Positions 14,489-38,832 are shown, counted from the stretch's first letter. The stretch is 64,000 nucleotides of DNA from an uncultured Oleiphilus sp. (GCA_964342385.1 CAYFGP010000003.1:69244-133243), one strand, 5' to 3'. The notes: generated from the sequence alone by a model not told the origin. Made by a program: numbers and translations.

Positions 14489-14525
14489 TGCCGTTTTGGT
14501 AATAAGTTGTTCTTAATAGACAATA

Positions 14526-14559: not shown

Positions 14560-14590
14560 GTTATAGCGGTGTTGGTTTTTCTTTCGAATG

Positions 14591-15394: not shown

Positions 15395-15515
15395 GATTGC
15401 TGTCCTTAATAAAGATGCTTAATGGGGGGATGATTTGGGCACTTATGAGGTCGTAGTGTTCGATCAATTTTTAGTGATAAGAGTATGGATATATTGGACC
15501 CATTCAAGGGATCAG

Positions 15516-16058: not shown

Positions 16059-16200
16059 AACCGATCACCGCTGTCTAGTGGGCGGAGTATTTTGTTACAG
16101 ATACTTTGATTCTAATGACTTTTTACTATTTAGGGCAAATAACAGAGGGAAAACAAGCAATTACTGATATGACTGAAGCTTATCCTTGAAAAATAAGAAT

Positions 16201-22200: not shown

Positions 22201-22804
22201 TCTGGCCAATTACGTGCATGATCTGGTGGTTTTCGACCGCAACAAGGCGCTGGATGCCTTTATGGCAGATGCTGAGAAACTGGCTCAACTGTACCCAGCC
22301 GGTGACAATCAGCGTATCGCCCTGCGTGTACTGGTGAAAACACACTGGATTAAAGATGAAGTCTTTGTTGCGCACCTGATGGTATCGCCGCTGAAGAAAG
22401 CCCGTGATGAACAGGCTTACAAGCATCTGGGTAGTGACTTCCGCATCGTTCATATCAACCGTCCGGAATTTGAACTGATGGATCGTCGCTTTGCCTTCGA
22501 ATTCTCGCCAAAAGAGTGGATGTTGAAAACCATGCGTCATCAGCGCTGGTTCCGTAACTCTCAGGCGAAGGTCCATGAAAAAGAGCATCAGATTGCTCAA
22601 CGTATCCGTCACGAACTGCTGGAAACCGTGCCTAACGAAACGGATGATCAGCGTAAGGCGCTGATGCGTTTGGATAACATTAAAGGTTATCGCCAAGTGC
22701 GGTATGAGAAAGCAGAAAAGGTGTTCCCAGATCTGCCTTCATCGCCATCGAAAGGTGGCAAGAATCTCCAACAGATTCCTGTAGTACAGACCCATCAGCC
22801 GTAA
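19292..22804 (+). CDS. ior: Fused indolepyruvate:ferredoxin oxidoreductase (IorA+IorB-like), TPP and 4Fe-4S
   Basis: NGNE...GGLEAG..YTGYPGSP; FCPGCPHR; HGDVGC; GDSTFFHSG TPP motif; ferredoxin CEDCRAC..TGCP...CVSDGYC..CP; beta-subunit VTGVGGTGV and KGLAQRNG. Confidence 0.88.
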   Translation: MSYKILNGNELIIQGGLEAGFSLYTGYPGSPLADYFNILHSRKSELQEKGIRVALGNTEANAAAMAGGAKQAGRNVMVGMKSMGLHVASDALSVGNFANPGQPYIDPETGESIHSGVVVVVGDDPWSMSTSTAADSRYLFKHLHMPFLEPSTPQELKDWIAHSLELSQRSSLYAGVLVTTFIAEGGGRVQLGEESEVPNTLTEFDPSTFNLSESVMVPPNSFKADVRMIRERFPKVKKVLKELALDEQSGNADSKVGFISSGVVYETLKQIMQEEHYLDDFSLYKVACSYPLVDDLLVPWLQKLDTLVVVEEKRGFLENELISLCQEHGVKVRVYGKEFIDGELVVEGFPADGGISYEILRGKMDTLMGLLGLRPCQEKQPELIALDSALPMRLPTFCPGCPHRETLSLLKELRKVFKEEEGINLISHGDVGCYSLSFLEPFKEMHDISAMGQGGAFGAGMDLFSQNPSVVLMGDSTFFHSGLSAISNSVQLGHNITYIVLDNDFTAMTGHQMSPSTGQSVEGRKRPEQDMLNLVRGMGVDEAMEVNPSDRYFYQNVLKDMVKKSGTKVIVSNKECGLTFAARKKSQDRKIFGAGETKPVQTFFQINTSACEDCRACVEMTGCPGLSQTEDAYGPKTFIDPQICVSDGYCTKIMACPSFEKVEVINYHPTRYQNAADNSAVVQNDAALPEPVRQKSFDDILAGNDWRVVVTGVGGTGVTTISRVLAEAGEQMNGLEGLDFKFMDQKGLAQRNGRVTGHLSIFSTAKSASAITPVGTADLVLSPDLLDGSAALPFLAPFGEALLDEEFQIPLSILLDYGEDNEVLTSDKLRKQLTDKLGDRVFLSPMKEVSHRQLGKGVYASAVLLGIAYQKGMLPFTEDNMKDAFRRSVPKAEYDNNWKAFELGRRVVVMGIEAFRNQFLPQQETSQFNLFRDSVRDSAGMKESADELAHIFDNGLAKLKGLFPAIEEEHLANYVHDLVVFDRNKALDAFMADAEKLAQLYPAGDNQRIALRVLVKTHWIKDEVFVAHLMVSPLKKARDEQAYKHLGSDFRIVHINRPEFELMDRRFAFEFSPKEWMLKTMRHQRWFRNSQAKVHEKEHQIAQRIRHELLETVPNETDDQRKALMRLDNIKGYRQVRYEKAEKVFPDLPSSPSKGGKNLQQIPVVQTHQP

Positions 22805-22820
22805 GGTCGATAGAGCTGTC

Positions 22821-22854
22821 GCCAAATCAGGTCCTCTCCAATACCTGATTTGGC
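22821..22854. terminator. Stem-loop just downstream of ior
   Basis: GCCAAATCAGGT-N10-ACCTGATTTGGC, a perfect 12-bp stem. Confidence 0.5.
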
Positions 22855-23007
22855 CAGGAATCTAGAGATACTCTGAGTCGTGCTTATTTAGATATGCCTT
22901 TCTGGATAAGCATGATGGGTTATCTGGCTGAGTTAGGGTTTTGCCAGGTGACTGTTTCAGAGGCTTTTGGCCCTTGCAAAAGGGCAATCGTTGTTACATT
23001 TGGTCTT

Positions 23008-23089
23008 GTCCAGTTTTTACTGGTTTTTACCTCGATCCCGCAAGGGAGAGAGCTCTGCACTTTCCCCGCCGATTTGGCGGGTTTTTTTT
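23008..23089 (+). ncRNA. Candidate ~80-nt small RNA ending in an intrinsic terminator
   Basis: Extended -10-like TGtTACATT at 22992-23000; hairpins CCAGT-TTTT-ACTGG and CTC(GA)TCCC-GCAA-GGGAGAG (GNRA loop); terminator CCCGCC-gattt-GGCGGG-T8 at 23065-23089. No family assigned. Confidence 0.4.
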
Positions 23090-23279
23090 GTTCTGAGACA
23101 GAGGCTTTATGATTAGCAAAATCAAAGGATTGCGACATATAAGATCGTGTATTTATCGCAAGCCATTTTTTAACTGACCTCTACTCAATCTTTTCTTCCC
23201 TTCACCACTATAAATTCCTTGCTGAGCTAAATAACAGCTTGATATTCTTGAAGCTTTTAGACGATCAGGCTACAGCAGA

Positions 23280-24998
23280 ATGAAGCAGACCGAGCAGGAA
23301 TTTCTCAATCAACTGGATAACAAACTCTGGACCGCCGCCGATAAGCTGCGCTCAACATTGGATGCTGCCCAGTATAAACACGCTGTATTAGGTTTGATCT
23401 TTGTTAAGTATGTGTCAGATGCTTTTTCCCTACGTCAGGATGAGATCAAAGCCGATCTGCTTAATCCTGAACATGAGTATTACCTTGATCCAGAGGATTA
23501 CTCAGAGGAGGAACTGGCGGAAGAGATGGCCATCGAGCTGGAGCAGCGCGACTTCTACACCGAGAAGAACGTGTTCTGGTTACCGCCTGAATCCCGTTGG
23601 TCGTTTCTGCAAGACAAGGCTCCTACCGTGATCGGGGGCAGAGAGTTAGAGGTTACCGACGCTAACGGCAAGACGACTCAAAAGAAGATCACCTCTGTCG
23701 GCCACCTGATTGATAACGCCCTGGAAGGTATCGAGCGGGATAATGCCAAGTTAAAAGGCGTATTAAACAAACACTATGCTCAATTAAAAATTGATCAGTC
23801 AAAACTGAATGAACTGATCAACCTGATCGCGACCATTCCGTTTAACCACGAGTCTTTAAACAGTAAAGATATTCTGGGCCACGTCTACGAGTATATGTTG
23901 GGCCAGTTTGCCCTGGCAGAGGGTAAAAAGGGTGGTCAGTTCTATACACCAGCCTCAATCGTAACCCTGATTGTAGAGATGATAGAACCCTTTGAAGGCC
24001 GGGTATACGATCCTGCTATGGGTTCCGGTGGCTTCTTTGTGCAATCTGAGAAGTTTATCGAGCGTTACGCCAACGAAAAGAAATTCGACCCGATTAGCCA
24101 AAAGCGCAAAATCTCTATTTATGGTCAGGAATATAACCACACCACATGGCAACTCGCCGCCATGAATATGGCGATTCGTGGTCTAGATTATGACTTTGGC
24201 AAAGAACCTGCCAGCACCTACACCAGCGACCAGCACCCGGATCTGCGCGCTGACTTTATTATGGCCAACCCACCTTTCAATATGAAAGAGTGGAACAGCG
24301 GTGTCGATGAAAACGACCCGCGCTGGAAATACGGCACACCACCAGCCGGTAACGCCAACTTTGCCTGGTTGCAGCATATGCTGCACCACCTGGCACCGGA
24401 TGGCTCTCAAGCCCTGTTACTCGCTAACGGCTCTATGAGCTCCAGCACCAATAACGAAGGCACGATCCGTCAGGCTCTGATCGACAATGATCTGGTGGAA
24501 TGTATGGTCGCCCTGCCAGGGCAACTGTTTACCAACACCCAGATTCCCGCCTGTATCTGGTTCTTAACCAAGAACAAAAAACAGCGAACCGACCGAGCGG
24601 GCCGCAAACTGCGTAACCGCCAGAAAGAAGTGCTCTTTATCGATGCCCGTAACCTCGGCTATATGAAAGACCGGGTTCTCAGAGACTTTAAATGGGAAGA
24701 GATCGAACAGGTCGCCAGCCTATATCACGCCTGGAAAACCGGAGAAACTGTTCATGGCGTAAGCTACGAAGACCAGCCAGGATTCTGTAAATCCGCCACC
24801 CTGGAAGATATTGTCAAACACGATTACGTCCTTACCCCTGGTCGCTATGTCGGTGCCGCAGAAGAAGAGGATGATGGCATTCCATTTAAAGAAAAGATGG
24901 AGACCCTAACCGCCAAACTAAGCGAACAGTTTGCTGAATCCGCCAAGCTCGAAGCAGAGATTAAAAAGAATCTAGAGGGGTTAGGTTATGACATCTAA
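23280..24998 (+). CDS. hsdM: Type I restriction-modification methyltransferase subunit
   Basis: LWTAADKLRS N-terminus; EGKKGGQFYTP; motif I VYDPAMGSGG; motif IV MANPPFN (m6A); LTPGRYVG. Confidence 0.96.
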   Translation: MKQTEQEFLNQLDNKLWTAADKLRSTLDAAQYKHAVLGLIFVKYVSDAFSLRQDEIKADLLNPEHEYYLDPEDYSEEELAEEMAIELEQRDFYTEKNVFWLPPESRWSFLQDKAPTVIGGRELEVTDANGKTTQKKITSVGHLIDNALEGIERDNAKLKGVLNKHYAQLKIDQSKLNELINLIATIPFNHESLNSKDILGHVYEYMLGQFALAEGKKGGQFYTPASIVTLIVEMIEPFEGRVYDPAMGSGGFFVQSEKFIERYANEKKFDPISQKRKISIYGQEYNHTTWQLAAMNMAIRGLDYDFGKEPASTYTSDQHPDLRADFIMANPPFNMKEWNSGVDENDPRWKYGTPPAGNANFAWLQHMLHHLAPDGSQALLLANGSMSSSTNNEGTIRQALIDNDLVECMVALPGQLFTNTQIPACIWFLTKNKKQRTDRAGRKLRNRQKEVLFIDARNLGYMKDRVLRDFKWEEIEQVASLYHAWKTGETVHGVSYEDQPGFCKSATLEDIVKHDYVLTPGRYVGAAEEEDDGIPFKEKMETLTAKLSEQFAESAKLEAEIKKNLEGLGYDI

Positions 24999-26331
24999 TT
25001 GGCAAACTTATACCCTTGGTGACGTATGTGAAAAGATTACTGACGGTGCTCATCAAAGCCCTAAGTCTGTAGACGATGGTAAGCCAATGGCTTCTGTTAA
25101 GGATTTAAGCTACTTTGGGGTAGATTTATCGGGTGCACGAAAAATATCTCAAGAGGATTTTGACTCTCTCGTAAGGCAAGGCTGCAAGCCTGAAATTGGT
25201 GATGTCCTAATTGCTAAGGATGGTAATACCGCTTTAGATACAGTTTGCACTGTGGATAAAGAATTAGATGCAGTTCTTCTATCTTCTGTTGCAATATTAA
25301 GGCCTAATTCAGAAAAGGTTGATTCCGAGTTCTTGAAATATTATTTGTCTTCACCACGGACAATTGATTATCTGAAGTCAAATTTTATATCTGGTGCAGC
25401 TATTCCTAGGGTCGTGTTGCGTGATTTTAGAAAAGCGCTTATTACACTACCACCCGTTAGCTTACAGTTGAGAATTTCAAACATTCTTCGCTCTATAGAT
25501 AAAAAGATTCTGAATAATATTGAATCAAACCAAACCTTAGAAGAAATGGCTCAAGCCCTCTTCAAATCTTGGTTTGTAGATTTTGACCCAGTTAAAGCCA
25601 AAATGAGTAGTGAACAGCCGGTAGGTATGGGTCAGGAAACAGCGGAGCTTTTCCCTAATAGACTTGTGAGTTCTGAGTTAGGAATGATTCCTGATGGATG
25701 GGATGTTGGTACGATTGATTCATATACGACGCTGATTATTGATCACCGTGGCAAAACACCAAAGAAACTTGGCAGTGACTGGGTTGAAAGTGGTTACCCT
25801 GCAATATCTGCAAAAAATATCAAATCAAAGAAAATTGTCAGAGAAGATACTATCCGCTTTATTAATGAAGCAACTTATAGAAAATGGATGAAGGAGCCAT
25901 TGGTCAAGGGGGATATTATTATGACTTCCGAAGCACCAATGGGGGAGCTTTATTTCTATGATGGAGTTTCACCGTTTTGTCTAAGCCAAAGGCTATATGG
26001 ATTACGTGCAAACCCACAGCTTACTTCACCTGAGTTTCTATATTTCTGGTTGCAAACAGTTAAAGCTCAATCAGATATGGAAGGTCGAGCTTCAGGTACA
26101 ACAGCACTAGGTATTAAACAAGCTGAATTAAGAAAAGTTAAAGTACTTAGCCCTCCAATTTGGTTAGTGAGAAAATTTAGCCAGTTTGTTGGAGGCTTAG
26201 TCGAACTGTCGGCTGAAAATAATAGATCAAATGAGTCGTTGATAAACTTGCGTGATACTCTTCTACCTAAACTCCTATCTGGTGAGATTCAGCTATCTGA
26301 AACTGAAAGCCTGACTGGGGCGGTAGTGTGA
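24988..26331 (+). CDS. hsdS: Type I RM specificity subunit
   Basis: Two variable TRDs separated by conserved NQTLEEMAQALFKSWFVDFDP and a terminal LRDTLLPKLLSGE; overlaps the hsdM stop by 11 nt; AT-richer than hsdM. Confidence 0.95.
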   Translation: MTSNWQTYTLGDVCEKITDGAHQSPKSVDDGKPMASVKDLSYFGVDLSGARKISQEDFDSLVRQGCKPEIGDVLIAKDGNTALDTVCTVDKELDAVLLSSVAILRPNSEKVDSEFLKYYLSSPRTIDYLKSNFISGAAIPRVVLRDFRKALITLPPVSLQLRISNILRSIDKKILNNIESNQTLEEMAQALFKSWFVDFDPVKAKMSSEQPVGMGQETAELFPNRLVSSELGMIPDGWDVGTIDSYTTLIIDHRGKTPKKLGSDWVESGYPAISAKNIKSKKIVREDTIRFINEATYRKWMKEPLVKGDIIMTSEAPMGELYFYDGVSPFCLSQRLYGLRANPQLTSPEFLYFWLQTVKAQSDMEGRASGTTALGIKQAELRKVKVLSPPIWLVRKFSQFVGGLVELSAENNRSNESLINLRDTLLPKLLSGEIQLSETESLTGAVV

Positions 26332-26410
26332 TGTGGTTGGCTCTTGCTCTAAGTAGTTTAGAGTCATTCTCAGCATATATCGTATCTTAAAAAATAGATT
26401 AGGTATTCTG

Positions 26411-27430
26411 ATGATTACTGATTTTGAGTTAAAGAACTTTGGCCCTATTAATCAGATATCAGGTCATTCTCTGAGCTCAATCAATCTGATTATTGGAGAT
26501 AATGGGGCAGGAAAAACCTTTCTGCTTAAAGCTTTATATAGTGCACTAAAAAGTCATGAGAGTACTGATCAAAGTGATGGGCAGCGAGGTTTTTCAAAGG
26601 TTTTATCTAATAAACTATCTCGCACTTTTCAAACAGAGAAAGTTGGAGATCTTGTTTCAAAAGGGAAAGGAAAGAGGCTACAGCTAACTTTAAACACCAA
26701 AGATAATCAATATTTAGTGTTTTCTTTTGGGGCGGAAACTAAAAGTAAGATTACTCAGTTGCAGAATCATCTAGAGTCGAGAGGTGCAAGTACAGTATTT
26801 TTGCCTTCTCAAGAAGTGTTATCTCCGACTCCTGTTATTTTGGATTCCCAATTACGGGATAATGCATTTGCTTTTGATGACACCTGCTTGGATCTAGCCT
26901 TAGCATTACAAAAGCAATCCCAGCCATCGGCCGACAGCGATACTTTATCTCTAGCAAGCCGACAATTAGGCGCAATGCTGGGTGGCAAGATTGAGTTTGA
27001 TACCGTTAAACGATGTTGGGTCTATAAAAAGAGAAATAGTCGATATCCAATATCTGCAGTCGCCGATGGCTTTAAGAAGATTGCAACTTTTGATATCTTG
27101 TTAAGAAATCGCTTTATCAATGAAGGCTCTATAGTATTTGTTGATACACCTGAATCGGCTTTGCACCCTACAAACGTTGTCGAACTCTTAGACGTAATCA
27201 GCTTGTTAGCTCAATCTGGTGTTCAGTTCTTTATCGCTAGTCATTCCTATTTCGTGATTAAAAAACTGTTGTTGGTAGCCAATAATGAGAAAATGCAAAT
27301 ACCTGTGTTTGTTGCAGACAATGCAGGTGACTGGAGACAAAGCTGTTTATTAGAAGATGGCTTGCCTGAGAACGAGATTATTAATAAGTCAATACGCTTA
27401 TTTGAGCAAGAGTTTACAGGAAGCTTCTGA
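26411..27430 (+). CDS. ABC/AAA_21-like ATPase with non-canonical Walker B
   Basis: Walker A GDNGAGKT, signature-like ADGFKK, Walker B FVDTPESALHP (usually DEPE), H-loop ASHS. Confidence 0.82.
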   Translation: MITDFELKNFGPINQISGHSLSSINLIIGDNGAGKTFLLKALYSALKSHESTDQSDGQRGFSKVLSNKLSRTFQTEKVGDLVSKGKGKRLQLTLNTKDNQYLVFSFGAETKSKITQLQNHLESRGASTVFLPSQEVLSPTPVILDSQLRDNAFAFDDTCLDLALALQKQSQPSADSDTLSLASRQLGAMLGGKIEFDTVKRCWVYKKRNSRYPISAVADGFKKIATFDILLRNRFINEGSIVFVDTPESALHPTNVVELLDVISLLAQSGVQFFIASHSYFVIKKLLLVANNEKMQIPVFVADNAGDWRQSCLLEDGLPENEIINKSIRLFEQEFTGSF

Positions 27431-27490
27431 TGGTTTTACTGAATAAATCAGGCATTTCATTTAAAAAGCTTTGGCTGGAGGGGTAAAGCT

Positions 27491-28564
27491 ATGAAGCCCC
27501 CTTTTACTATTACCAGTGAAATACTGACTCTGGTTGCCAATATCAGCGAGCTGGTGGGGCGCTTAACTGAGCAGTTGGCTTCTCAGCATGATGTTCGTTT
27601 ACGTCGGGTAAACCGGGTGCGAACGATTCAGGGCTCTTTGGCAATTGAAGGTAACACCTTAAGCGAAGAACAGATTACGGCTATTTTGGCGGGTAAAAGG
27701 GTGATCGCTCCACCTCGTGAAGTACAGGAAGCCCAGAATGCGATTAAGGTTTATGATCAGTTCTCTTTCCTGCAATTTGGTAGTGAGCAGGATCTGTTAA
27801 AAGCCCATAAAACCCTGATGCTTGGCTTAATTGATACTGCAGGCGCATATCGTTCAGGTGGTGTGGGGGTTATGAAAGGTGATCAGGTGATTCATATGGC
27901 ACCGCCTGCGAATCGTGTTCCTGTTTTGATGGGCGATTTAATGCGCTGGTTGAAACAAAGCCAGGATCACCCGCTGATCAAAAGCTGTGTTTTTCATTAT
28001 GAGTTTGAATTTATCCATCCGTTTGCTGATGGCAATGGTCGTATGGGGCGTTTGTGGCAAAGTCTGATATTGGCTGAGTGGCAGCCGTTATTTGCTAACT
28101 TGCCCGTTGAGAGTTTGATCCACCAGTATCAGGATGAGTACTATGCTGCGATTAATCGAAGTACTCAGATTACAGACTCTGCACCTTTTATCGAATTTAT
28201 GCTCAAGATGATTCTTGATGTATTAGAAGAGGGGGCTGAGAGTGCGGGAGAGCAGCAGACCCGCCAAGTCAGCCCTCAAGAAACCCACCAAGTTAGCCCT
28301 CAAGTTATCCGTGCTGATATAGGCTTAAAATATGCTGATATTTCACCTCAGGTGCAGCTGTTATTGCAGTCTGTAAAAGGAGAAATGTTACGAGGGGAGT
28401 TGCAACAAAAACTGGGTCTAAAAGATCGGGCTTCTTTCCGAACTCGTTATTTAAAGCCTGCTATTGAAGGTGGTTGGCTAGAGATGACACAACCCGATAA
28501 ACCAACAAGTCGTACCCAGCGTTATCGTTTAACGGCAAAAGCCAAGAGCTATCTACAGCCTTAA
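27491..28564 (+). CDS. Fic family protein with C-terminal winged-helix domain
   Basis: Canonical HPFADGNGRMGR motif; QVSPQ-repeat linker; C-terminal LKPAIEGGWLEMTQPDKPTSRTQRYRLT. Confidence 0.92.
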   Translation: MKPPFTITSEILTLVANISELVGRLTEQLASQHDVRLRRVNRVRTIQGSLAIEGNTLSEEQITAILAGKRVIAPPREVQEAQNAIKVYDQFSFLQFGSEQDLLKAHKTLMLGLIDTAGAYRSGGVGVMKGDQVIHMAPPANRVPVLMGDLMRWLKQSQDHPLIKSCVFHYEFEFIHPFADGNGRMGRLWQSLILAEWQPLFANLPVESLIHQYQDEYYAAINRSTQITDSAPFIEFMLKMILDVLEEGAESAGEQQTRQVSPQETHQVSPQVIRADIGLKYADISPQVQLLLQSVKGEMLRGELQQKLGLKDRASFRTRYLKPAIEGGWLEMTQPDKPTSRTQRYRLTAKAKSYLQP

Positions 28565-28604
28565 TAATTGAATATTAATCGGTGTAGAACATATAGAGAT
28601 ATGG

Positions 28605-29801
28605 ATGATGAAAGCACCTCTACATGATAGTCATTATGTAATAGAGAAGGTTGAGCAGTATCTTCAAAATAAATTGGATGAAAACAGAGGCTTTAATGAC
28701 GAAGTAAATAGTAGTGCTCTGGTTGAAATTGCTAAGGAAGGGCCAAAAGTTAAAGTTACTAGCTTAACTGATCCCGAGACGCATTTTAGCTATGATGTTA
28801 GTGATATTCTATTTTGGATAGAAAGAGAAACATATTTCGATGAATTTTCAAAATGGAATGGTGCTAAGCTGACCGATAAGCATGAATCTACAATTGATTA
28901 TCTGAGAAAGACGAATCAGCTTCCGTTATTCCAGGATCTAATTGCGGCAATACAGCGACAACGTATCGCCCCTTTTATTGGTGCTGGAGCATCTTATCCT
29001 GCTGGATATCCAATCTGGAGGGATGCTCTAGAGTCTTTAGCTAAACAGCTTGGAGATAATGTTTTTGCAGAGATTAAAGATGCTTTAGATGAGTATCGTT
29101 ATCTCTATGTTGCCGAACACTTATACAAGAAAAATGAACCTTTTTTTAATAATTACATACAAACTGATTTTCGCTTAAAGCCTAGGTATGAAGAAGATGA
29201 TCCTATTTTTCCTCCTGTTATAGAAGTATTACCTATGCTGGCCAAAGGATGTATAGTAACAACTAACTTTGATAGGCTAATTGAGAAAAAATTTGAACAA
29301 GTGAATAGTAGACCTTTGGCTGGTTATATGTATGGTAAACAAGCTGAGAATGGTTTTGTCAGTCAGCTCTTAAAGGGTGAAAACTGTTTGATGAAGTTGC
29401 ATGGTGACTTAGAACAGAGTCAATCTTATGTATTTACCGAATCTCAGTACAATGAAGCGTATGGGACTGAGGAAATTGATTTTTCTAAACAGCTACCTCG
29501 ATCATTACGCCAGATTTATATCAGTTATTCCCTATTATTTATTGGTTGTTCGTTAGAACAGGATCGTACACTGGATCTGTTTCAATCAGTTAAGGCTCAA
29601 GGTCATTTCGAAATCCCAAGTCATTTTGCATTATTACCTGAGTCTGAAGGAGAAGATAAAGCTACAAAGATGGGGCGCCTTCTGGATATGAATATCAGGC
29701 CTATCTGGTATGAGTCGAAAGATAAAGATCACTCTATGCTAGAAAAGTTGCTGCTACTCGCCATTGATGTAGCTGAGAAGAAGTTTAGTCTGGGAGGTTA
29801 A
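28605..29801 (+). CDS. SIR2-like (SIR2_2) domain protein, predicted NAD+ hydrolase, with ~105-aa N-terminal domain
   Basis: PFIGAGAS, IVTTNFD, MKLHGD and LLFIGCSL sirtuin motifs; AT-rich; stop is 3 nt before the hsdR ATG. Confidence 0.88.
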   Translation: MMKAPLHDSHYVIEKVEQYLQNKLDENRGFNDEVNSSALVEIAKEGPKVKVTSLTDPETHFSYDVSDILFWIERETYFDEFSKWNGAKLTDKHESTIDYLRKTNQLPLFQDLIAAIQRQRIAPFIGAGASYPAGYPIWRDALESLAKQLGDNVFAEIKDALDEYRYLYVAEHLYKKNEPFFNNYIQTDFRLKPRYEEDDPIFPPVIEVLPMLAKGCIVTTNFDRLIEKKFEQVNSRPLAGYMYGKQAENGFVSQLLKGENCLMKLHGDLEQSQSYVFTESQYNEAYGTEEIDFSKQLPRSLRQIYISYSLLFIGCSLEQDRTLDLFQSVKAQGHFEIPSHFALLPESEGEDKATKMGRLLDMNIRPIWYESKDKDHSMLEKLLLLAIDVAEKKFSLGG

Positions 29802-29804
29802 GGC

Positions 29805-32800
29805 ATGATTACTGAAGATCAATTAGAACAGAATTGCCTCCTATGGTTTCAAGACATTGGCTATGACTATTGTTCAGGTGTCGGTATTGCCCCTGATGGA
29901 GAGAATCCTGAACGGGATGATTATTATCAGGTGGTGTTAAAGCCGCGTTTATCTGAGCGTTTGGCGCTGCTGAATCCTGAGTTAAGTTCGGATGTGCTGG
30001 AGCAGGTTGTTCAGACTGTGTGCACCCCTGAAACACCTGTGTTGATCAAGAATAACCGTAGCTTTCATAAATATCTGATCGAGGGTGTGCCGGTTGAATA
30101 CAGTGTCATTGAGGACGGTCAGTCGGTTAGCAAGCACAGTCATGCTCGGCTAATGGATTTTGATCAGCCAGATAATAATGATTTTCTGGTGGTGAATCAG
30201 TTTACCGTTAAAGGCCGTTCCAGTTCGGGACAAAACAGCACCCGTCGTCCTGATGTGGTGGTGTTTATTAATGGTTTGCCCATTAGTGTGATTGAACTGA
30301 AAAATCCGGCGGATGAACATGCGGATATCTGGAATGCTTTTAATCAGCTGCAAACCTATAAAGACGATATCAGTGATCTGTTTATCTTCAATGAGGCTTT
30401 GGTGATCAGCGATGGTTGGCAAGCGCGGGTAGGGTCGTTAACGGCGAACAGAGAACGCTTTTTACCCTGGAAGACCATTAAGAGTGAAGACGATAAGCCG
30501 CTGTTAGAGTATCAGTTAGAAACGCTGATTCGGGGCTTTTTCCAGCCTGAGCTGCTACTGGACTATATCCGTTATTTTATTCTGTTTGAAAATGCGACAG
30601 AGGCGAGTAGCGATAGTCTGATTAAGAAGATTGCGGCTTACCATCAGTTCCATGCGGTGCGTGCGGCGGTTAAAGCAACGGTGATTGCGGCACAGCCTTC
30701 AGAGAAAGTGGCTGAACCCCGTGCGACTTATGCCGAACGTGTATTACCGGGCAGTAAAAAGGCGGGGGTGGTCTGGCATACTCAGGGCAGTGGTAAAAGC
30801 ATCTCTATGGTGTGTTATGCCAGTAAGTTGTTGCAGCAACCGAGTATGAATAACCCAACACTGGTGGTGGTGACAGATCGTAATGATCTACACGGTCAGC
30901 TGTTTAATACCTTTAGTACGGCTCATGAGACGCTGAAGCAACTTCCGCAAGAAGCAGGTAGCCGTGATGGTCTACGTGAACTGTTATTCAGCCGTCAATC
31001 CGGCGGTATTATTTTTACCACGATTCAAAAGTTTGCTCTGCTGGACGGCGAGCTAAATCATCCGGTGTTATCAAAGCGGGATAATATTGTGGTGGTATCC
31101 GATGAGGCCCACCGTAGTCAATATGGTAATACAGCCAAACTGGTGGATATTAAGGACAAAGACGGTGCCGTCATTGAGCAGCGCTACGTCTACGGTTACT
31201 CCAAATATCTGCGTGATGCCTTGCCTAATGCTTCCTTTATCGGTTTTACCGGCACCCCCATTGCTCTGGATGATAAGGATACACGGGGTGTGTTTGGTGA
31301 CTATGTCTCTATCTATGATATTCAGGATGCGGTAGATGATGGTGCGACGGTGCCTATCTATTATGAATCCCGTTTAGCCAAACTTGATATTCAACAACAG
31401 GATATTGAGGCGTTAAACGATCAGGTGGAAGACGAGATCGCTGAAGAAGATGAGCTAGCGGCCCGAGAGCAGATTAAATCCAAATGGTCGGCGCTGGAAA
31501 AGCTGGTGGGAGCTGAACCTCGGATAGAGGAAGTGGCGAAGGATCTGATTGCCCATTTCACTACCCGTACCAAGACATTCCCTGGCAAGGCGATGATTGT
31601 TGGTATGAGCCGAGAGATCTGTGTGGATCTCTACGACGCCATCACCAAGCTGAGGCCCGACTGGCACAACGATGATCCCAAGCAGGGCGCTATTAAGGTA
31701 GTAATGACAGGGAGCGCCTCAGATAAAGAGAAACTACAGCAGCATATTTATGATTCTAAAACCAAAAAGCATTTTGAGAAGCGCTTTAAAGATACCGCTG
31801 ACCCGCTACAGCTGGTGATTGTACGGGATATGTGGCTGACCGGTTTTGATGCTCCTTGCTGTCACACCATGTACGTGGATAAACCAATGCGTGGCCATAA
31901 CCTGATGCAGGCGATTGCACGGGTAAACCGGGTGTTTAAAGATAAACCCGGTGGTCTGGTGGTGGATTATATCGGTATCGCCAATGAGCTGAAAAATGCG
32001 CTGAAGACCTACACCAACAGCTCCGGTAAAGGTCAACCTACGGTTGATACGGCGGAAGCTTTCTCTCTGCTGCAGGAAAAGATCGATATTATTCGGGGCA
32101 TGTTTGCCACACCGGTTGACGGTCAGGTGTTCCACTATCGGCCAGATTTTGAAACTCAAGCGCTGCGTTTATTACCTGACGCCGCCAATCATATTGTCAG
32201 TTTAGTTATCCCTAGCGCCAATAACCCCGAAGGTGAAAGAAGTGGCAAACGTCGCTTTCTGGATGTGATGGCTGCCCTCAGTAAGACCTATTCTCTGTGT
32301 AACACTCTGGATGAGGTACAGGAATACAAAACTGAAATCGCGTTTTATTCGGCCATTAAAGCGGCATTTCTTAAACACTCCAATGTGGATAAAAAACGCA
32401 GCGATGAGGCTCGTAACTCAGCCCTGAAACAGATCCTGGATAACGCCATTACCGCTGATGGAGTAGATGATATCTTTGCGATGGTCGGTCTCGATAAGCC
32501 AGATATCAGTCTGTTGTCGGAAGAGTTTCTGGAAGACGTGCAAAATATGCCGCAGCAAAATCTTGCGGTTGAGCTATTGGAAAAACTACTGCGGGATGAA
32601 GTCAAAGCCCGCATGAAAACTGATGTGGTACAGGAGCGTAAATACTCTGACCTCATTACAGAAACTCTGAAAAAGTATCACAATCGTAGCATTGAAACCG
32701 CCCAGGTGATTGAGGAACTGATCCAGTGGGCAAAAGAGATGGCTGCTGATGCTGAAATGGCCAGCCGACTGAAACTGTCCCCTGATGAGATCGCGTTTTA

Positions 32801-33059
32801 CCGTGCTTTGATTGTTAATGAAGCCTCTGTGCGTGAACTGGGTGATAACAATCTGCGTCAATTGGCGATTGAACTGACCCAGAAACTACGGAAGTCCACT
32901 ACGGTGGATTGGAATAAACGGGAGAGTGTCCGGGCGAGAATGCGTAATCTGGTGCGCCGTTTATTAAGACGCTGGAAGTACCCACCAGATGCTGCTGAAG
33001 ATGCCGTTAGGCTGGTGCTTGAACAGGCTGAAGCACTGGCAGACGAGTGGAGTGACTAG
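29805..33059 (+). CDS. hsdR: Type I restriction endonuclease subunit R
   Basis: Nuclease RPDVVVFING...IELKN; Walker A HTQGSGKS; DEAHRSQYG; GFTGTP; MWLTGFD; QAIARVNR. Confidence 0.96.
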   Translation: MITEDQLEQNCLLWFQDIGYDYCSGVGIAPDGENPERDDYYQVVLKPRLSERLALLNPELSSDVLEQVVQTVCTPETPVLIKNNRSFHKYLIEGVPVEYSVIEDGQSVSKHSHARLMDFDQPDNNDFLVVNQFTVKGRSSSGQNSTRRPDVVVFINGLPISVIELKNPADEHADIWNAFNQLQTYKDDISDLFIFNEALVISDGWQARVGSLTANRERFLPWKTIKSEDDKPLLEYQLETLIRGFFQPELLLDYIRYFILFENATEASSDSLIKKIAAYHQFHAVRAAVKATVIAAQPSEKVAEPRATYAERVLPGSKKAGVVWHTQGSGKSISMVCYASKLLQQPSMNNPTLVVVTDRNDLHGQLFNTFSTAHETLKQLPQEAGSRDGLRELLFSRQSGGIIFTTIQKFALLDGELNHPVLSKRDNIVVVSDEAHRSQYGNTAKLVDIKDKDGAVIEQRYVYGYSKYLRDALPNASFIGFTGTPIALDDKDTRGVFGDYVSIYDIQDAVDDGATVPIYYESRLAKLDIQQQDIEALNDQVEDEIAEEDELAAREQIKSKWSALEKLVGAEPRIEEVAKDLIAHFTTRTKTFPGKAMIVGMSREICVDLYDAITKLRPDWHNDDPKQGAIKVVMTGSASDKEKLQQHIYDSKTKKHFEKRFKDTADPLQLVIVRDMWLTGFDAPCCHTMYVDKPMRGHNLMQAIARVNRVFKDKPGGLVVDYIGIANELKNALKTYTNSSGKGQPTVDTAEAFSLLQEKIDIIRGMFATPVDGQVFHYRPDFETQALRLLPDAANHIVSLVIPSANNPEGERSGKRRFLDVMAALSKTYSLCNTLDEVQEYKTEIAFYSAIKAAFLKHSNVDKKRSDEARNSALKQILDNAITADGVDDIFAMVGLDKPDISLLSEEFLEDVQNMPQQNLAVELLEKLLRDEVKARMKTDVVQERKYSDLITETLKKYHNRSIETAQVIEELIQWAKEMAADAEMASRLKLSPDEIAFYRALIVNEASVRELGDNNLRQLAIELTQKLRKSTTVDWNKRESVRARMRNLVRRLLRRWKYPPDAAEDAVRLVLEQAEALADEWSD

Positions 33060-33147
33060 TCCTTTAAGCCGTTGGAAGTGAGACAAAGAGCTTGCCCTGA
33101 GAAGTTGGGGGCAGGCTCAAGGAATCATAAGGAAGTAGAGGATAAAA

Positions 33148-34332
33148 ATGCTAATGATTGGTCAGTCTGAAAATTCGTCTTACGTATTAAATTGTCCGGA
33201 AGAGTTTGATCTTAATAAAGAAATCCTAGCTGCTGAAGCGGTGTATATTGCTACTGCATTTGCCCATGAAAGTGGTTGGCGTTTAATAAAAAAAGGACTG
33301 AAAAATACCCAGGCTAAAGTTAAGTTGATTGCGGGGTTAAACTTTTGTCAATCTGAGCCTAGGGTGCTAGAGCAGTGGATCAGCCCTGACTTTGATCACG
33401 CCGAAGCTTATTGTTATATCGGAGAAGAAACATTCCATCCGAAGGTAATGATTGTAAAGGGACAAGAGCACAGTTTTGCCATTGTCGGTTCAGGCAATAT
33501 GTCCCGAGGCGGCTATATCGATAATGTTGAGTGCAATGTTTATCTCTCATCTGACCAGGATGTTGAACGTTTGATCGAGTGGTATCAGGGCATTATTTCA
33601 GGCGGCAGTAGCGCTCTGTTAAATGCTAATCTGCTGGCTGACTATAAGATCAAACATGCCGCAGCTCAGAGCAGTATCGCCAAGGCCAAAAAGAAAAACC
33701 GTCAAGCTCAGAATGAACTGGCGCAGTTGGTGCAGAATAGAGCCAAAAAAGAAGCAGGTTTTGAAAATTGGGATCAAGCGATTAAAGATGCCAAAGCATT
33801 CTATGCTTCCGATGAGTTTGCCAATGGTTGGTATAGGAACCACAAAAAAGCGGCGAAAGAGATTAAAGAGCAGTTGGGCTATCCCAATTTTAATTTTGGC
33901 TATGAGCAGTGGGATGAATTCTACCGAATTGAGAGCTTTGGCAATCTGAATGATATACCTAAGAAGCGAATTTTTGGTGAAGACAAGAAACTTAAAGACG
34001 GACTCAAGCAGCTCTTGGATGAAAGCATCCCTGTTGCAGAGAGGGTCAATTACTTGGTGGATAATAATCGATCTACCGGCATTTCTGGTATGGGGATAAA
34101 TACCGTTTCAAAGGTATTGTTGGCATCGGCACCGAAACGTTGGCCTGTTATGAATGGTCCTGTTGAGAATGTATTGGATTATTATGGCTATGCGGAACCC
34201 TTTCGAGTGAGTAAAGGTGATAAGTATGCTGCTTATGCCGAATTGATGCAGCGATTTATCAAAGAGGCAGGGATCAAAAATATGATGGCCCTCGATTGTT
34301 TCTTCTACTGGAAGAATGAGCAGATCAGCTAA
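33148..34332 (+). CDS. Phospholipase D-family (single HKD) nuclease with C-terminal domain; putative restriction endonuclease
   Basis: FHPKVMIV...IVGSGNMSRGG..DNVE motif of Nuc/BfiI/NgoFVII-type PLD nucleases; directly downstream of hsdR. Confidence 0.78.
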   Translation: MLMIGQSENSSYVLNCPEEFDLNKEILAAEAVYIATAFAHESGWRLIKKGLKNTQAKVKLIAGLNFCQSEPRVLEQWISPDFDHAEAYCYIGEETFHPKVMIVKGQEHSFAIVGSGNMSRGGYIDNVECNVYLSSDQDVERLIEWYQGIISGGSSALLNANLLADYKIKHAAAQSSIAKAKKKNRQAQNELAQLVQNRAKKEAGFENWDQAIKDAKAFYASDEFANGWYRNHKKAAKEIKEQLGYPNFNFGYEQWDEFYRIESFGNLNDIPKKRIFGEDKKLKDGLKQLLDESIPVAERVNYLVDNNRSTGISGMGINTVSKVLLASAPKRWPVMNGPVENVLDYYGYAEPFRVSKGDKYAAYAELMQRFIKEAGIKNMMALDCFFYWKNEQIS

Positions 34333-34361
34333 ATAAAGCTAGATCCCTGACTTAACAGTCT

Positions 34362-34398
34362 GATCTCACTCCTATCTATGATGGATAAGAGTGAGATC
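34362..34398. terminator. Stem-loop closing the defence cluster
   Basis: GATCTCACTCCTATC-N7-GATAAGAGTGAGATC (14/15 paired). Confidence 0.55.
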
Positions 34399-34646
34399 GG
34401 CTTGGTCAATTACAGTGCTAGTTCCAGTCTGAGCTAATTACAACGAGTCCCAAGCAAAAATCTCCGCTGGTAAACCAATAATCGGAGCTTGTTACAGTTA
34501 GTCTTTCCCCTTACCCATCTTGTTTTCCTAATGATTATTAAGCGTCTTGTGTTGTCACTGGTGTAATGACTAGGATCGCGTCGCAAATCAATTGCAGCTG
34601 TTAATAAAAACAATTAGCATTACGAGCTTGAAATAAGGAGCTCGTT

Positions 34647-35840
34647 ATGGGGATTTATCAGGGCCTGAATAGATGTGATCTGTTTAGTCGGACCCGCCCA
34701 CAGGTTCAAGGCATATCTGCCTTATCTTTTTTGACCACGGTTTTATCTGTCGCAAGGACTTCTATCGTCTCTCTTCTACTCGCTATTGTGTCAGTTCTGA
34801 TCGTATTTGTTATTAGCTCACCGGCATTGGCTCAGCAGGCAACGGTATCTGCTTTAGATCAGCCCCAATCAGCGGTACAAAGCTTACAACAGGAACGAAG
34901 AGTGGCTGATAAAGGTGATGGCCTGGTGATTCAGGGCATGCCCAAACGAGTTGTGGTGCTGGAATACTCTTTTCTTGATGCGGTGGTACTGGCGGGCATT
35001 ACTCCAGTGGGGATTGCTGATGACCAAAAGCCTCAGCGAATTCTGCCGCAACTGAAACAGCGGATGGGTGATTATCAATCTGTTGGTTTGCGTGGTCAGC
35101 CTAATCTTGAAACCATTGCCAGCCTGAAACCGGATCTGATTATTGCTGATCAGCAGCGTCATAGCGGTATCTACCGGGAGCTACAGGAGATTGCTCCAAC
35201 GCTGTTATTGCTAAGTTATGGTGCGGAATATAACGATCTGTTAGATGATGCTGTGTTGATTGGTCTGGCGCTGGGCAAACAAACCTACGTTGAGCAGCGT
35301 TTACAGCAGCATGAAACAGCGATGGATCGTTTTCGTGTCCAATTAAGGAGTGCTCAGTTAACAAACTTCCAGTTGAAAAGCACCCAATCAAAAAGTACGC
35401 AGGGGCAACAAGCTCAAGCCGAACGTTTCCTATTTGCTACGGCCAGTGCACGGGGTGTCGCGGTGCATGCCAGTAAAGCCTTTGCCACAGGCGTTATACG
35501 TCGCTTAGGGCTGCAGACGGCGATTCCTCAAGGGGATAACAGTGCCTATATGCGTGTCAGCTTTGAGCAGATGGCAGGTATGAACCCTGATTGGTTGTTG
35601 GTGGGTGATTATAACCGTGCGCAAGGTGGGGCTGAGGCACTAAAACGTTGGCAGGCTCATCCATTGTGGCCGATGTTAAATATGGCCAAAAAACAGCAGC
35701 TGAAGCTGGTGGATCCTAAGGTTTGGTCGCTCAGTCGCGGTATTTTTGCTGCCGAGCAGATTGCTGAGGACCTGATTAAACTGGTTTCTGCTTCTCAACT
35801 GGTTTCACTTACACCTGTAGAGGGTGTGCAACAACCATGA
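34647..35840 (+). CDS. fecB: Fe(3+)-dicitrate/siderophore ABC substrate-binding protein
   Basis: PKRVVVLEYSFLDA, PVGIADD, SVGLRGQPNLETIASLKPDLIIAD, WSLSRGI. Confidence 0.85.
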   Translation: MGIYQGLNRCDLFSRTRPQVQGISALSFLTTVLSVARTSIVSLLLAIVSVLIVFVISSPALAQQATVSALDQPQSAVQSLQQERRVADKGDGLVIQGMPKRVVVLEYSFLDAVVLAGITPVGIADDQKPQRILPQLKQRMGDYQSVGLRGQPNLETIASLKPDLIIADQQRHSGIYRELQEIAPTLLLLSYGAEYNDLLDDAVLIGLALGKQTYVEQRLQQHETAMDRFRVQLRSAQLTNFQLKSTQSKSTQGQQAQAERFLFATASARGVAVHASKAFATGVIRRLGLQTAIPQGDNSAYMRVSFEQMAGMNPDWLLVGDYNRAQGGAEALKRWQAHPLWPMLNMAKKQQLKLVDPKVWSLSRGIFAAEQIAEDLIKLVSASQLVSLTPVEGVQQP

Positions 35841-38657: not shown

Positions 38658-38832
38658 ATTTCCTTCTTATAACCGTCAATCAAAATAGCCCATTAAAACT
38701 GTCCATCAACGTTCTATCAAGACAGCCCATAAAAAGCCCCGATGCTTTCGTTCTGGTTGAACTAAGACTCGGGGCAAAATGAGAAAGGACCGAACAGCCT
38801 CTCAGCAGAGAGACTGAGTTGTTTTTGTGCGA

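What the first reader, a model, noticed from the sequence alone, without database searches (positions are those of the whole stretch)
23280..34332. Layered defence island: type I RM carrying four extra effector-like genes
Seen: one co-directional run hsdM-hsdS-ATPase-Fic-SIR2-hsdR-PLD nuclease with gaps under 90 nt, closed by a stem-loop. The cargo genes hsdS, ATPase and SIR2 look AT-richer than hsdM/hsdR. Established: the hsdS-hsdR interval is a hotspot for exchangeable antiphage genes. Inference: three different chemistries (AMPylation, NAD+ cleavage, phosphodiester cleavage) may back up restriction, either independently or as one circuit.
Basis: partly seen in the sequence, partly recalled or inferred. 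Interest (0 to 1): 0.65.

Follow-up and report, generated by a model that had tools for sequence, protein, structure and literature searches.

The report
Restriction operon carrying extra defence genes
A marine bacterium's type I restriction-modification operon carries four passenger genes that turn out to be separate add-ons, not one machine: one is a broken half of a known anti-phage pair, and one, an NAD-destroying SIR2 enzyme, is found only inside such operons.

Summary
Window 23280-34332 is one co-directional run, hsdM-hsdS-ATPase-Fic-SIR2-hsdR-PLD, with gaps of 88 nt or less and a strong hairpin after it.

The "one circuit" reading is not supported. The four passengers behave differently across relatives.

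1. The ATPase is HEC-02A. Its obligatory nuclease partner HEC-02B is present in 81 of 82 relatives but missing here, leaving only an 18-codon stub. The invariant Walker-B glutamate is Thr, and 16 of 95 conserved sites are changed.
2. Fic has an intact motif plus an inhibitory helix. It is shared at 96% aa identity with a sister strain, and its family is only sometimes linked to restriction-modification (RM) genes.
3. The SIR2 family sits between hsdS and hsdR in all 82 related loci, from bacteria to archaea. It co-diverges with HsdR (r=0.85), keeps its catalytic residues and folds like defence NADases. It is probably a PrrC-like back-up, which is inferred and untested.
4. The PLD gene encodes an HKD nuclease with an Ogg-like C-domain. 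Its family mostly stands alone elsewhere.

A sister strain has the same island with a different hsdS, a different neighbouring gene and no SIR2, which confirms cassette exchange. The AT-richness of hsdS and SIR2 is a family-wide trait.

The island is a new member of a known kind: defence genes embedded in type I RM.

The parts
23065..23090 (+). Terminator-like hairpin plus T8 between the ior-like gene and hsdM; left border of the island
   Evidence: 7-bp stem with 6 GC pairs, followed by TTTTTTTT; sequence. The sister strain L088 is collinear from ior into hsdM.
23280..24998 (+). hsdM, type I N6-adenine DNA methyltransferase
   Evidence: Pfam N6_Mtase 362 bits plus HsdM_N. PADLOC MTase_I 571 bits. 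NPPF at residue 330. Only 1 of 195 conserved sites changed. PDB 3KHK 671 bits.
24988..26331 (+). hsdS, specificity subunit with two target-recognition domains; allele differs from the sister strain
   Evidence: Methylase_S with 2 matched stretches. PADLOC Specificity_I 325 bits. Not alignable to L088 hsdS except for a 174-nt central piece. GC3 0.30.
26411..27430 (+). Orphan HEC-02A-like ABC ATPase with Walker-B Glu replaced by Thr (E246T)
   Evidence: PADLOC HEC-02A 416 bits. The partner HEC-02B follows in 81 of 82 relatives that have downstream sequence, but not here. E246 is invariant in 79 of 79 relatives. 16 of 95 conserved sites are changed, against a mean of 1.3 in relatives. It has the longest terminal branch in the family tree.
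27430..27486 (+). 18-codon stub (MVLLNKSGISFKKLWLEG*), probable remnant of the deleted HEC-02B 5' end
   Evidence: The ATG overlaps the ATPase stop codon (TGATG). 'SG..F' is in register with the HEC-02B N-termini. Its profile score ranks 8th of 1232 Met-started 12-mers of the window. This is suggestive only.
27491..28564 (+). Class II-type Fic protein (N-terminal inhibitory helix) with a C-terminal winged-helix domain
   Evidence: Fic plus Fic-like_C. HPFADGNGRMGR at 176 and SLAIEG at 49. PDB 4RGL 371 bits. PADLOC SoFic 141 bits. NCBIfam SoFic 62 bits against a cut-off of 550. 96% aa identity to L088 Fic.
28605..29801 (+). SIR2_2 protein with a family-specific N-terminal domain of about 105 aa; predicted NADase dedicated to type I RM
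   Evidence: SIR2_2 99.6 bits. GAGAS, TTNFD and KLHG motifs present. 0 of 49 conserved sites lost. The model (pLDDT 81.8) matches ThsA, KomC and DSR2. All 82 related loci place it between hsdS and hsdR. It co-diverges with HsdR, r = 0.85. The N-domain is found only in this family.
29805..33059 (+). hsdR, type I restriction/translocase subunit
   Evidence: TIGR00348 616 bits. Pfam HSDR_N, SWI2_SNF2, T1R_D3-like and T1RH-like_C. GSGKS, DEAH and ELK motifs. 5 of 334 conserved sites changed, which is typical.
33148..34332 (+). Single-HKD (PLD-family) nuclease with an Ogg/HhH-GPD-like helical C-terminal domain
   Evidence: PLDc_2. Family alignment keeps FHPK and VGSGN. Model pLDDT 89.5. The N-domain matches SauUSI, NucT, BfiI and NgoAVII; the C-domain matches 8-oxoG glycosylases. 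85% aa identity in L088 at the same position. 0 of 22 other genome loci are next to RM genes.
34357..34402 (+). Strong hairpin after the PLD gene, with no U-tract
   Evidence: -31.7 kcal/mol, z = -4.87. Sequence.

Best explanation
This is a chromosomal type I RM island in an Oceanospirillum-like marine gammaproteobacterium. It lies between an ior-like gene and an iron-siderophore ABC transporter. hsdM, Fic, hsdR and PLD are inherited vertically and are shared with a sister strain at about 90-96% nt identity. The segments 'hsdS + next gene' and 'SIR2 (+ the 5' end of hsdR)' have been exchanged by recombination.

The four passengers are separate modules.

(a) The ATPase is the sensor half of HEC-02. 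Its PD-(D/E)xK nuclease partner was deleted and its catalytic glutamate is lost, so HEC-02 defence is not expected from it.

(b) Fic is an auto-inhibited class II AMP-transferase with a DNA-binding winged helix. It most likely acts as a SoFic-like single-gene toxin or abortive module.

(c) SIR2 is a dedicated accessory of this RM lineage. The inferred mechanism is that its N-terminal domain docks on the HsdM2S or complete enzyme and keeps the NADase silent. When phage anti-restriction proteins disable the enzyme, NAD+ is hydrolysed and infection aborts, as PrrC does with EcoprrI.

(d) The HKD nuclease with its Ogg-like base-reading domain acts on DNA on its own, possibly as a modification-dependent nuclease.

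Shown here: anatomy, homology, linkage statistics and intact or lost motifs. Inferred: all activities, triggers and physical contacts.
For: RM core: complete, with motifs intact.

Sister-strain comparison: blocks 21764-25003, 27497-28567 and 29805-38661 are 90-92% identical. hsdS+ATPase and SIR2 have no counterpart.

HEC-02:
- The ATPase scores 416 bits on HEC-02A.
- The 169-aa neighbour in relatives scores 171 bits on HEC-02B.
- 81 of 82 loci with downstream sequence have that neighbour. None is found in this window.
- Both genes are required for defence (Payne 2024).
- E246T against 79 of 79 Glu. 16 of 95 conserved sites changed, against a mean of 1.3, sd 1.5.
- A stub is in register with HEC-02B.

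SIR2:
- 82 of 82 loci lie between hsdS and hsdR, in Proteobacteria, Bacteroidota, Bacillus, Cyanobacteria, Acidobacteriota, Planctomycetota and Methanosarcinales.
- The hsdS-SIR2 gap is 30 nt or less in 68 of 72 loci, with a median of -4.
- SIR2-HsdR distance correlation is 0.85, against 0.89 for HsdR-HsdM; Mantel p <= 0.001.
- It has a defence-NADase fold.
- The N-domain is exclusive to the family.

Independence of the modules: Fic, PLD or HEC-02 lie near this SIR2 family in 3 or fewer of 82 loci each. The Fic family is near hsd genes in 20 of 80 metagenome loci. The PLD family is near them in 0 of 22 genome loci.

Precedents for RM-guard effectors: PrrC and Ronin. The Sir2-type I RM link was noted in 2012.
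Against: - No functional data exist for any passenger here or, as far as I could find, for this SIR2 family.
- The sister strain keeps the RM genes without SIR2, so SIR2 is dispensable for RM.
- This is the only locus of 83 in which SIR2 is not directly behind hsdS (2273 nt apart, against a maximum of 458 elsewhere). Any coupling to HsdS translation is therefore lost here.
- The ATPase ORF is still open over 339 codons. Neutral simulation keeps it stop-free in only 1.7-18% of runs, so some selection on it may persist.
- A HEC-02B gene elsewhere in the genome could not be excluded, because the genome search was shut.
- Transcription as one operon is unverified.
Confidence: 0.6

Rival explanations
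1. One integrated circuit. The hydrolysis-deficient ATPase has been rewired as an ATP-bound sensor that now controls the neighbouring Fic (or SIR2) in place of its lost nuclease, so that the passengers and the RM enzyme work as one system.
For: ABC-ATPase defence systems swap effectors (Payne 2024). The ATPase lies 60 nt upstream of Fic on the same strand. Its ORF is intact although 16 conserved sites have changed, which is unlikely under pure decay (1.7-18%). Walker A, the D-loop and the H-loop are kept.
Against: The arrangement is unique: no closer homologue than 54% identity exists among 5.8 billion proteins apart from identical metagenome copies. None of 82 relatives has Fic in place of HEC-02B. 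In L012 and L055 Fic follows a complete HEC-02 pair. The same Fic (96% aa) follows an unrelated gene in the sister strain. The stub suggests a simple deletion.
Confidence: 0.08
2. SIR2 is an autonomous single-gene NADase defence, like DSR, that merely hitch-hikes in the hsdS-hsdR hotspot and senses phage proteins by itself without any functional tie to the RM enzyme.
For: The sister strain has the RM genes without SIR2. Other SIR2 defence proteins act alone or with non-RM partners (targets). Many unrelated genes use the same slot.
Against: 82 of 82 loci are embedded, always in the same HsdR/HsdM lineage (HsdR 47-77% identical) and nearly always abutting hsdS. Co-divergence is almost as tight as HsdR with HsdM. 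Facultative passengers such as Fic (20 of 80) and PLD (0 of 22) behave quite differently.
Confidence: 0.2
3. Only hsdRMS is active. All four passengers are silent or decaying relics of past recombination.
For: The ATPase is clearly damaged. The locus has been rearranged. No RNA evidence exists beyond one short contig.
Against: SIR2 has lost 0 of 49 conserved sites. The Fic and PLD motifs are intact, and both genes are conserved at 96% and 85% aa with a strain whose flanks are 92-94% nt identical, which indicates purifying selection. All ORFs are open, with tight spacing.
Confidence: 0.1

Closest known systems
PrrC / EcoprrI (E. coli prr locus) and Ronin (RonA with HsdMS)
   Same: An effector gene is embedded in, or tied to, type I RM genes. 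It is proposed to be held silent by the RM proteins and released by phage anti-restriction factors. The SIR2 family here shows PrrC-like exclusive embedding between hsdS and hsdR.
   Different: The effector is a SIR2 NADase-type domain plus a private N-terminal domain. It is not an ABC-ATPase/HEPN anticodon nuclease or a 61-aa membrane peptide. No biochemical or genetic evidence of coupling exists.
HEC-02 (Hma-embedded candidate 02; Payne, Hughes, Fineran, Jackson 2024, bioRxiv 10.1101/2024.01.29.577857)
   Same: The ATPase scores 416 bits on the HEC-02A model and sits in an RM operon, as many HEC-02 copies do.
   Different: The NERD-like nuclease HEC-02B is absent, and the Walker-B glutamate is Thr. 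Both genes are required in the tested system.
SoFic single-gene defence (Millman et al. 2022) / class II Fic AMP-transferases; PDB 4RGL
   Same: It has a Fic core with HPFxDGNGRxxR and an N-terminal SxxxEG inhibitory helix. PADLOC SoFic scores 141 bits. It is a close homologue of the solved but uncharacterised 4RGL.
   Different: It is far below the NCBIfam SoFic equivalog cut-off (62 against 550 bits). It carries a Fic-like_C winged helix. Its target and any defence role are untested.
Defence SIR2 NADases: Thoeris ThsA, DSR2, Kongming KomC
   Same: The SIR2 domain is their closest structural match (Foldseek E 1e-12 to 1e-10) and has catalytic Asn and His in place.
   Different: It has no SLOG domain, no DSR2 C-terminal sensor and no KomB partner. 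Instead it has a 105-aa N-domain unique to the family, and its partner by linkage is a type I RM enzyme.
HKD nucleases of restriction systems: SauUSI nuclease domain, BfiI, NgoAVII R, Nuc/NucT
   Same: The N-terminal domain is a single-HKD domain with HxK and GSxN motifs, and these are its best structural matches.
   Different: It has no helicase (unlike SauUSI) and no B3-like domain (unlike BfiI). The C-terminal domain resembles Ogg/HhH-GPD glycosylases. It has no adjacent methyltransferase of its own in other genomes.

Membership tests
Type I restriction-modification system | HsdM (N6-adenine MTase), HsdS (two TRDs) and HsdR (PD-(D/E)xK nuclease plus SF2 motor) encoded together with catalytic motifs | tested here: met
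   HsdR TIGR00348 scores 616 bits against a cut-off of 285. NPPF, GSGKS, DEAH and ELK are present. Conserved-site loss is typical. HsdM scores below the TIGR00497 cut-off (172 against 243) but passes Pfam.
HEC-02 | HEC-02A ABC ATPase | tested here: met
   PADLOC PDLC04214 scores 416 bits over 1-336 of 338 profile positions.
HEC-02 | Adjacent HEC-02B NERD-like PD-(D/E)xK nuclease (both genes required) | tested here: not met
   There is only a 60-nt spacer before Fic. No profile hit is found in six frames of the 64-kb window. 81 of 82 relatives have it. The requirement is stated. The rest of the genome could not be searched.
HEC-02 | Catalytically competent ABC ATPase (Walker-B Asp-Glu) | tested here: not met
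   The motif is D245-T246 here; Glu is present in 79 of 79 relatives.
SoFic (single-gene Fic defence) | Class II Fic: HxFx(D/E)GNGRxxR motif plus N-terminal (S/T)xxxE(G/N) inhibitory helix | tested here: met
   HPFADGNGRMGR at 176 and SLAIEG at 49. Both are conserved in relatives.
SoFic (single-gene Fic defence) | Sequence membership by curated model | tested here: inconclusive
   PADLOC SoFic scores 141 bits over residues 7-260. NCBIfam NF046030 scores 62 bits against a cut-off of 550. PDB SoFic scores only 49 bits.
PrrC-like RM-guard effector (works-like, not homology) | Gene almost exclusively embedded between hsdS and hsdR of type I RM | tested here: met
   82 of 82 loci of the SIR2 family. 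Tight abutment to hsdS. Co-divergence with HsdR and HsdM.
PrrC-like RM-guard effector (works-like, not homology) | Physical masking by the RM enzyme and activation by phage anti-restriction factors | not testable with these tools
   This needs pull-downs and NAD+ assays with Ocr, ArdA or Stp-like proteins. No report was found.
Thoeris ThsA | SIR2 domain fused to a SLOG/STALD signal-binding domain, with a ThsB TIR partner | tested here: not met
   Only the SIR2 part aligns (PADLOC ThsA 77 bits over residues 107-353). There is no SLOG domain and no TIR gene in the locus.
HKD/PLD nuclease superfamily | HxK...GSxN motif in a PLD fold | tested here: met
   FHPK at 96-99 and GSGN at 114, invariant in the family. 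The fold matches SauUSI, NucT and BfiI.
Type IV restriction enzyme SauUSI | PLD nuclease plus SF2 helicase plus target-recognition domain in one chain | tested here: not met
   The protein is 394 aa with no helicase domain. Only the nuclease domain matches.

The most novel reading that the evidence does not exclude
The orphan ATPase is not a relic. It has lost its nuclease partner and its catalytic glutamate but keeps an open frame and its nucleotide-binding motifs. It may have been rewired as a non-hydrolysing, ATP-bound switch that gates the neighbouring Fic AMP-transferase and/or the RM-docked SIR2 NADase. That would make a new composite sensor-effector circuit built inside a type I RM operon.
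Probability: 0.08. Interest if true: 0.65.

Novelty: new member of a known kind. Interest (0 to 1): 0.4.

Why it matters
The locus is a clean natural example of how defence genes are shuffled inside a restriction operon. Two strains share the same frame (hsdM, Fic, hsdR, PLD) but differ in hsdS, the gene behind it and SIR2. One passenger has been caught after losing its partner.

The most useful by-product is quantitative. This SIR2 family is as tightly bound to one type I RM lineage as PrrC is, across bacteria and archaea (82 of 82 loci; co-divergence r = 0.85). The link was noted in 2012, yet I found no experiment on it. That makes 'restriction enzyme guarded by an NAD+-depleting suicide enzyme' directly testable with a small construct set.

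It also warns annotators that a strong HEC-02A hit does not mean a working HEC-02 system, and that AT-richness of hsdS and SIR2 is not evidence of recent transfer.

Tried and rejected
- E. coli genomes hold no close relative; only hsdM/hsdR pieces match at about 73-75%.
- An exact look-up of the ATPase found nothing. A single-protein scan of genomes found one distant locus only, so I used family alignments instead.
- Metis (an m6dAMP-sensing system) came up as a possible model for an RM-linked NAD+ depleter. It is a different protein family and is not RM-embedded, so I kept it only as an idea.
- The N-terminal SIR2 domain has no Pfam family and no homologues outside the family among 1.84 billion representatives. 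Domain shuffling with other effectors was therefore not found.
- The sister-strain gene X301 is unrelated to the ATPase (hhalign probability 0.2%) and has no Pfam or PADLOC family.
- Rfam finds no RNA family in the island. No flanking direct repeats or att-like sites were found.
- The metatranscriptome contigs are too sparse to test the operon structure.
- Whole-genome search for a HEC-02B in trans, and for relatives, was impossible because the genome search was shut.
- Oceanospirillum beijerinckii is not a clean 'empty site'. Synteny ends after ior and the iron transporter is also absent.

Full report
**Observation.**
Seven ORFs lie on the + strand at exactly the coordinates given, separated by -11, 79, 60, 40, 3 and 88 nt. 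Profile searches name them as follows:
- HsdM: HsdM_N + N6_Mtase.
- HsdS: two Methylase_S stretches.
- An AAA_21/AAA_15 ABC-type ATPase.
- Fic + Fic-like_C.
- SIR2_2.
- HsdR: HSDR_N, SWI2_SNF2, T1R_D3-like and T1RH-like_C; TIGR00348 616 bits against a cut-off of 285.
- A PLDc_2 protein.

Catalytic motifs are in place in HsdM (NPPF), HsdR (GSGKS, DEAH, ELK), Fic (HPFADGNGRMGR plus the inhibitory SLAIEG), SIR2 (GAGAS, TTNFD, KLHG) and PLD (HPK...GSGN).

GC content is 48.9% and 47.6% for hsdM and hsdR. It is 39.4%, 38.3% and 37.0% for hsdS, ATPase and SIR2, and 45.9% and 42.4% for Fic and PLD.

A hairpin of -31.7 kcal/mol (z = -4.9) follows the PLD gene but lacks a U-tract. A canonical terminator (23065-23090) closes the upstream ior-like gene.

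**Setting.**
The flanks are an indolepyruvate-oxidoreductase-like gene and a periplasmic-binding-protein/FecCD/ABC iron transporter. The ior product clusters at 90% identity or more with Oceanospirillum beijerinckii, whose genome has the same upstream synteny but no island after ior. Tara Oceans and other marine metagenome contigs are 99.96-100% identical to the window. The only RNA evidence is one 163-nt metatranscriptome contig inside Fic. The genome search was shut, so the rest of the genome could not be searched.

**Sister strain.**
A Logan contig (L088) carries the same site: ior - hsdM - hsdS - 301-aa gene - Fic - hsdR - PLD - iron transporter.
- DNA identity is 92% over ior-hsdM, 92% over Fic and 90% from hsdR onward. 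The flanking chromosome is 92-94% identical.
- There is no alignment for hsdS+ATPase apart from a 174-nt central hsdS piece.
- There is no counterpart of SIR2. L088 has 44 nt between Fic and hsdR.
- The break points are at the hsdM/hsdS junction (25003) and the first codons of Fic (27497).
- The first 300 nt of hsdR are the least similar part of that gene (82%).

So hsdM, Fic, hsdR and PLD are the inherited frame. 'hsdS + next gene' and 'SIR2' are the exchanged pieces, and these are exactly the AT-rich genes. The 301-aa gene is unrelated to the ATPase and has no family.

**The ATPase.**
It scores 416 bits on PADLOC HEC-02A. In Vibrio, Lacimicrobium and many others the homologous ATPase is followed, usually with overlapping stop and start codons, by a gene of about 169 aa that scores 171 bits on HEC-02B. 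Of 86 related loci, 81 have it. Four of the other five end within about 250 nt of the ATPase.

Payne et al. describe HEC-02 as an ABC ATPase plus a NERD-like PD-(D/E)xK nuclease, with both genes required for defence. Here only 60 nt separate the ATPase from Fic, and a HEC-02B profile finds nothing in six frames of the 64-kb window.

The spacer starts with an 18-codon ORF. Its ATG overlaps the ATPase stop codon, and its 'SG..F' is in register with the HEC-02B N-termini. It ranks 8th of 1232 Met-started 12-mers in the window. This suggests a deletion that left the first codons of HEC-02B.

The ATPase itself is an outlier:
- 16 of 95 positions conserved in 95% or more of relatives are changed, against a mean of 1.3, sd 1.5 and a maximum of 9.
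- The changes include the Walker-B glutamate, which is Glu in 79 of 79 relatives and Thr here.
- It has the longest terminal branch in the family tree (0.72 against a median of 0.125).
- No homologue above 54% identity exists among 5.8 billion proteins.

By the same test HsdM, HsdR and SIR2 look normal, with 1 of 195, 5 of 334 and 0 of 49 sites changed.

Against a purely dead gene, the 339-codon frame is still open. Neutral simulations keep it stop-free in only 1.7% of runs if all 16 changes were neutral, or 18% if only 7 were. I therefore call it an orphaned, hydrolysis-deficient HEC-02A that cannot act as HEC-02. Whether it is a relic or has another role is left open.

**SIR2.**
Full-length homologues (35-69% identity) keep both the N-terminal domain of about 105 aa and the SIR2 motifs. 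In all 82 related loci fetched, the gene lies between hsdS and hsdR of a type I RM of the same HsdM/HsdR lineage, with HsdR 47-77% identical. These loci come from Vibrionaceae, Betaproteobacteria, Bacteroidota, Bacillus, Cyanobacteria, Acidobacteriota, Planctomycetota and Methanosarcinales.
- The hsdS-to-SIR2 gap is 30 nt or less in 68 of 72 loci, with a median of -4.
- The SIR2-to-hsdR gap is 30 nt or less in 56 of 79 loci.
- In 19 loci other cargo sits between SIR2 and hsdR: Schlafen/AlbA_2-HATPase_c_4, Abi_2, Mrr_cat, an AAA_21 ATPase, DUF3800, and a complete HEC-02 pair in L112.
- Pairwise distances of SIR2 correlate with those of HsdR (r = 0.85) and HsdM (0.86) almost as well as HsdR with HsdM (0.89); Mantel p <= 0.001.
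- The model (pLDDT 81.8) matches ThsA, KomC and DSR2, which are defence NADases.
- The N-domain has no Pfam family and occurs only in this family among 1.84 billion representatives.
- hsdS and SIR2 have lower GC3 than hsdM and hsdR in 66 of 66 loci (mean -0.17 and -0.15). Their AT-richness here is therefore a family trait, not a mark of recent arrival.

The window is the only locus in which SIR2 is not directly behind hsdS (2273 nt away; the maximum elsewhere is 458). It still abuts hsdR, with a 3-nt gap.

A Sir2-type I RM link was mentioned by Makarova et al. in 2012. I found no experimental study of it. The best-supported mechanism is by analogy with PrrC/EcoprrI and Ronin: an NADase kept silent by the RM complex and released when phage anti-restriction factors disable that complex. 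This is inference.

**Fic.**
It is a class II-type Fic, with the inhibitory helix N-terminal to the core, plus a winged-helix C-domain. It is a close homologue of the solved but uncharacterised 4RGL (371 bits) and only distantly related to SoFic and FICD.
- PADLOC would call it SoFic (141 bits), but NCBIfam's SoFic model gives 62 bits against a cut-off of 550.
- SoFic is a reported single-gene defence.
- The family lies near hsd genes in 20 of 80 metagenome loci, at varying positions. This is a lower bound because contigs are short.
- It follows complete HEC-02 pairs in L012 and L055.

It is a frequent but facultative passenger.

**PLD.**
It is a single-HKD nuclease. Its N-domain best matches the SauUSI nuclease domain, NucT, Zucchini, NgoAVII R and BfiI. 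Its helical C-domain resembles 8-oxoguanine glycosylases (profile E = 0.004; 3KNT in the fold search).
- The sister strain keeps it after hsdR (85% aa). Its C-terminal half is the most diverged stretch of the shared island, at 75-80% nt.
- An Oleispira homologue sits just upstream of hsdM of another type I RM.
- None of 22 other genome loci has hsd genes nearby. Their neighbours are heterogeneous, with no adjacent methyltransferase.

It is best read as a stand-alone DNA nuclease with a base-reading domain, possibly modification-dependent.

**Circuit or modules.**
Fic, PLD or HEC-02 genes occur near this SIR2 family in 3 or fewer of 82 loci each. No pair of passengers recurs. The evidence therefore favours a stack of independent modules, of which only SIR2 depends on the RM enzyme and one (HEC-02) is broken. 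A rewired ATPase-Fic or ATPase-SIR2 circuit is not excluded, but it rests only on adjacency and the open frame.

**Verdict.**
This is a real, correctly described locus. It is a new member of the known class 'defence genes embedded in type I RM' (Payne 2024). The points of interest are an orphaned HEC-02A and a member of an RM-exclusive SIR2 family whose guard function remains untested.

Noticed in passing
L089-L170 (related loci); window 24988-26331 and 28605-29801: In 66 of 66 SIR2-bearing type I RM loci, both hsdS and SIR2 have lower GC3 than hsdM and hsdR (mean -0.17 and -0.15). This is a systematic compositional split inside these operons.
   Followed up: partly
L107, L114, L118, L152, L156, L157, L163 (between SIR2 and hsdR): A 469-aa Schlafen/AlbA_2 + HATPase_c_4 protein is 86-95% identical across Pseudomonas, Ideonella, Hylemonella, Pseudoduganella and Methylococcaceae loci. 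This suggests very recent spread of this cargo.
   Followed up: partly
L112 (Hahellaceae MAG) 8986-15034: This locus reads hsdS-SIR2-HEC02A-HEC02B-hsdR. It holds a complete HEC-02 pair and the SIR2 in one slot, in the opposite order to the window.
   Followed up: no
L171 (Oleispira-like metagenome contig) 8001-17188: A PLD homologue (49% identity) lies directly upstream of hsdM. A reverse-transcriptase (RVT_1) gene plus a 442-aa gene are embedded between hsdS and hsdR, with BrxR nearby.
   Followed up: no
window 33702-34301: The C-terminal (Ogg-like) half of the PLD gene is only 75-80% nt identical to the sister strain, against 96% for the N-terminal half. This may reflect diversifying specificity.
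   Followed up: no
L088 4578-5483: In the sister strain a 301-aa gene occupies the ATPase position. It has no Pfam or PADLOC family, and its sequence hints at an N-terminal winged helix plus a PD-(D/E)xK-like core (D...EVK).
   Followed up: partly
window 28259-28304: A 24-nt tandem repeat in the Fic linker codes QV(S/T)PQ-type repeats. Its length varies between the window, L088 and L012.
   Followed up: no
L001 (Megasphaera) 7851-9255 and L043 (Endozoicomonas MAG) 8947-10253: These are the two other HEC-02A loci with a short or undetected HEC-02B (74-aa and 80-aa ORFs). L001 also has the second-highest loss of conserved ATPase sites, 9 of 95.
   Followed up: no
L203 2-3928: A metagenome contig has an HsdR 95% identical to the window's, followed directly by a Fic that is only 58% identical. 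The backbone is the same but a different Fic sits in a different position.
   Followed up: no
window 22894-23112 / 22992-23089: A 475-nt intergenic region lies before hsdM, with two small hairpins and a strong terminator. It overlaps a 72-aa ORF that has no family. Rfam finds nothing there.
   Followed up: no
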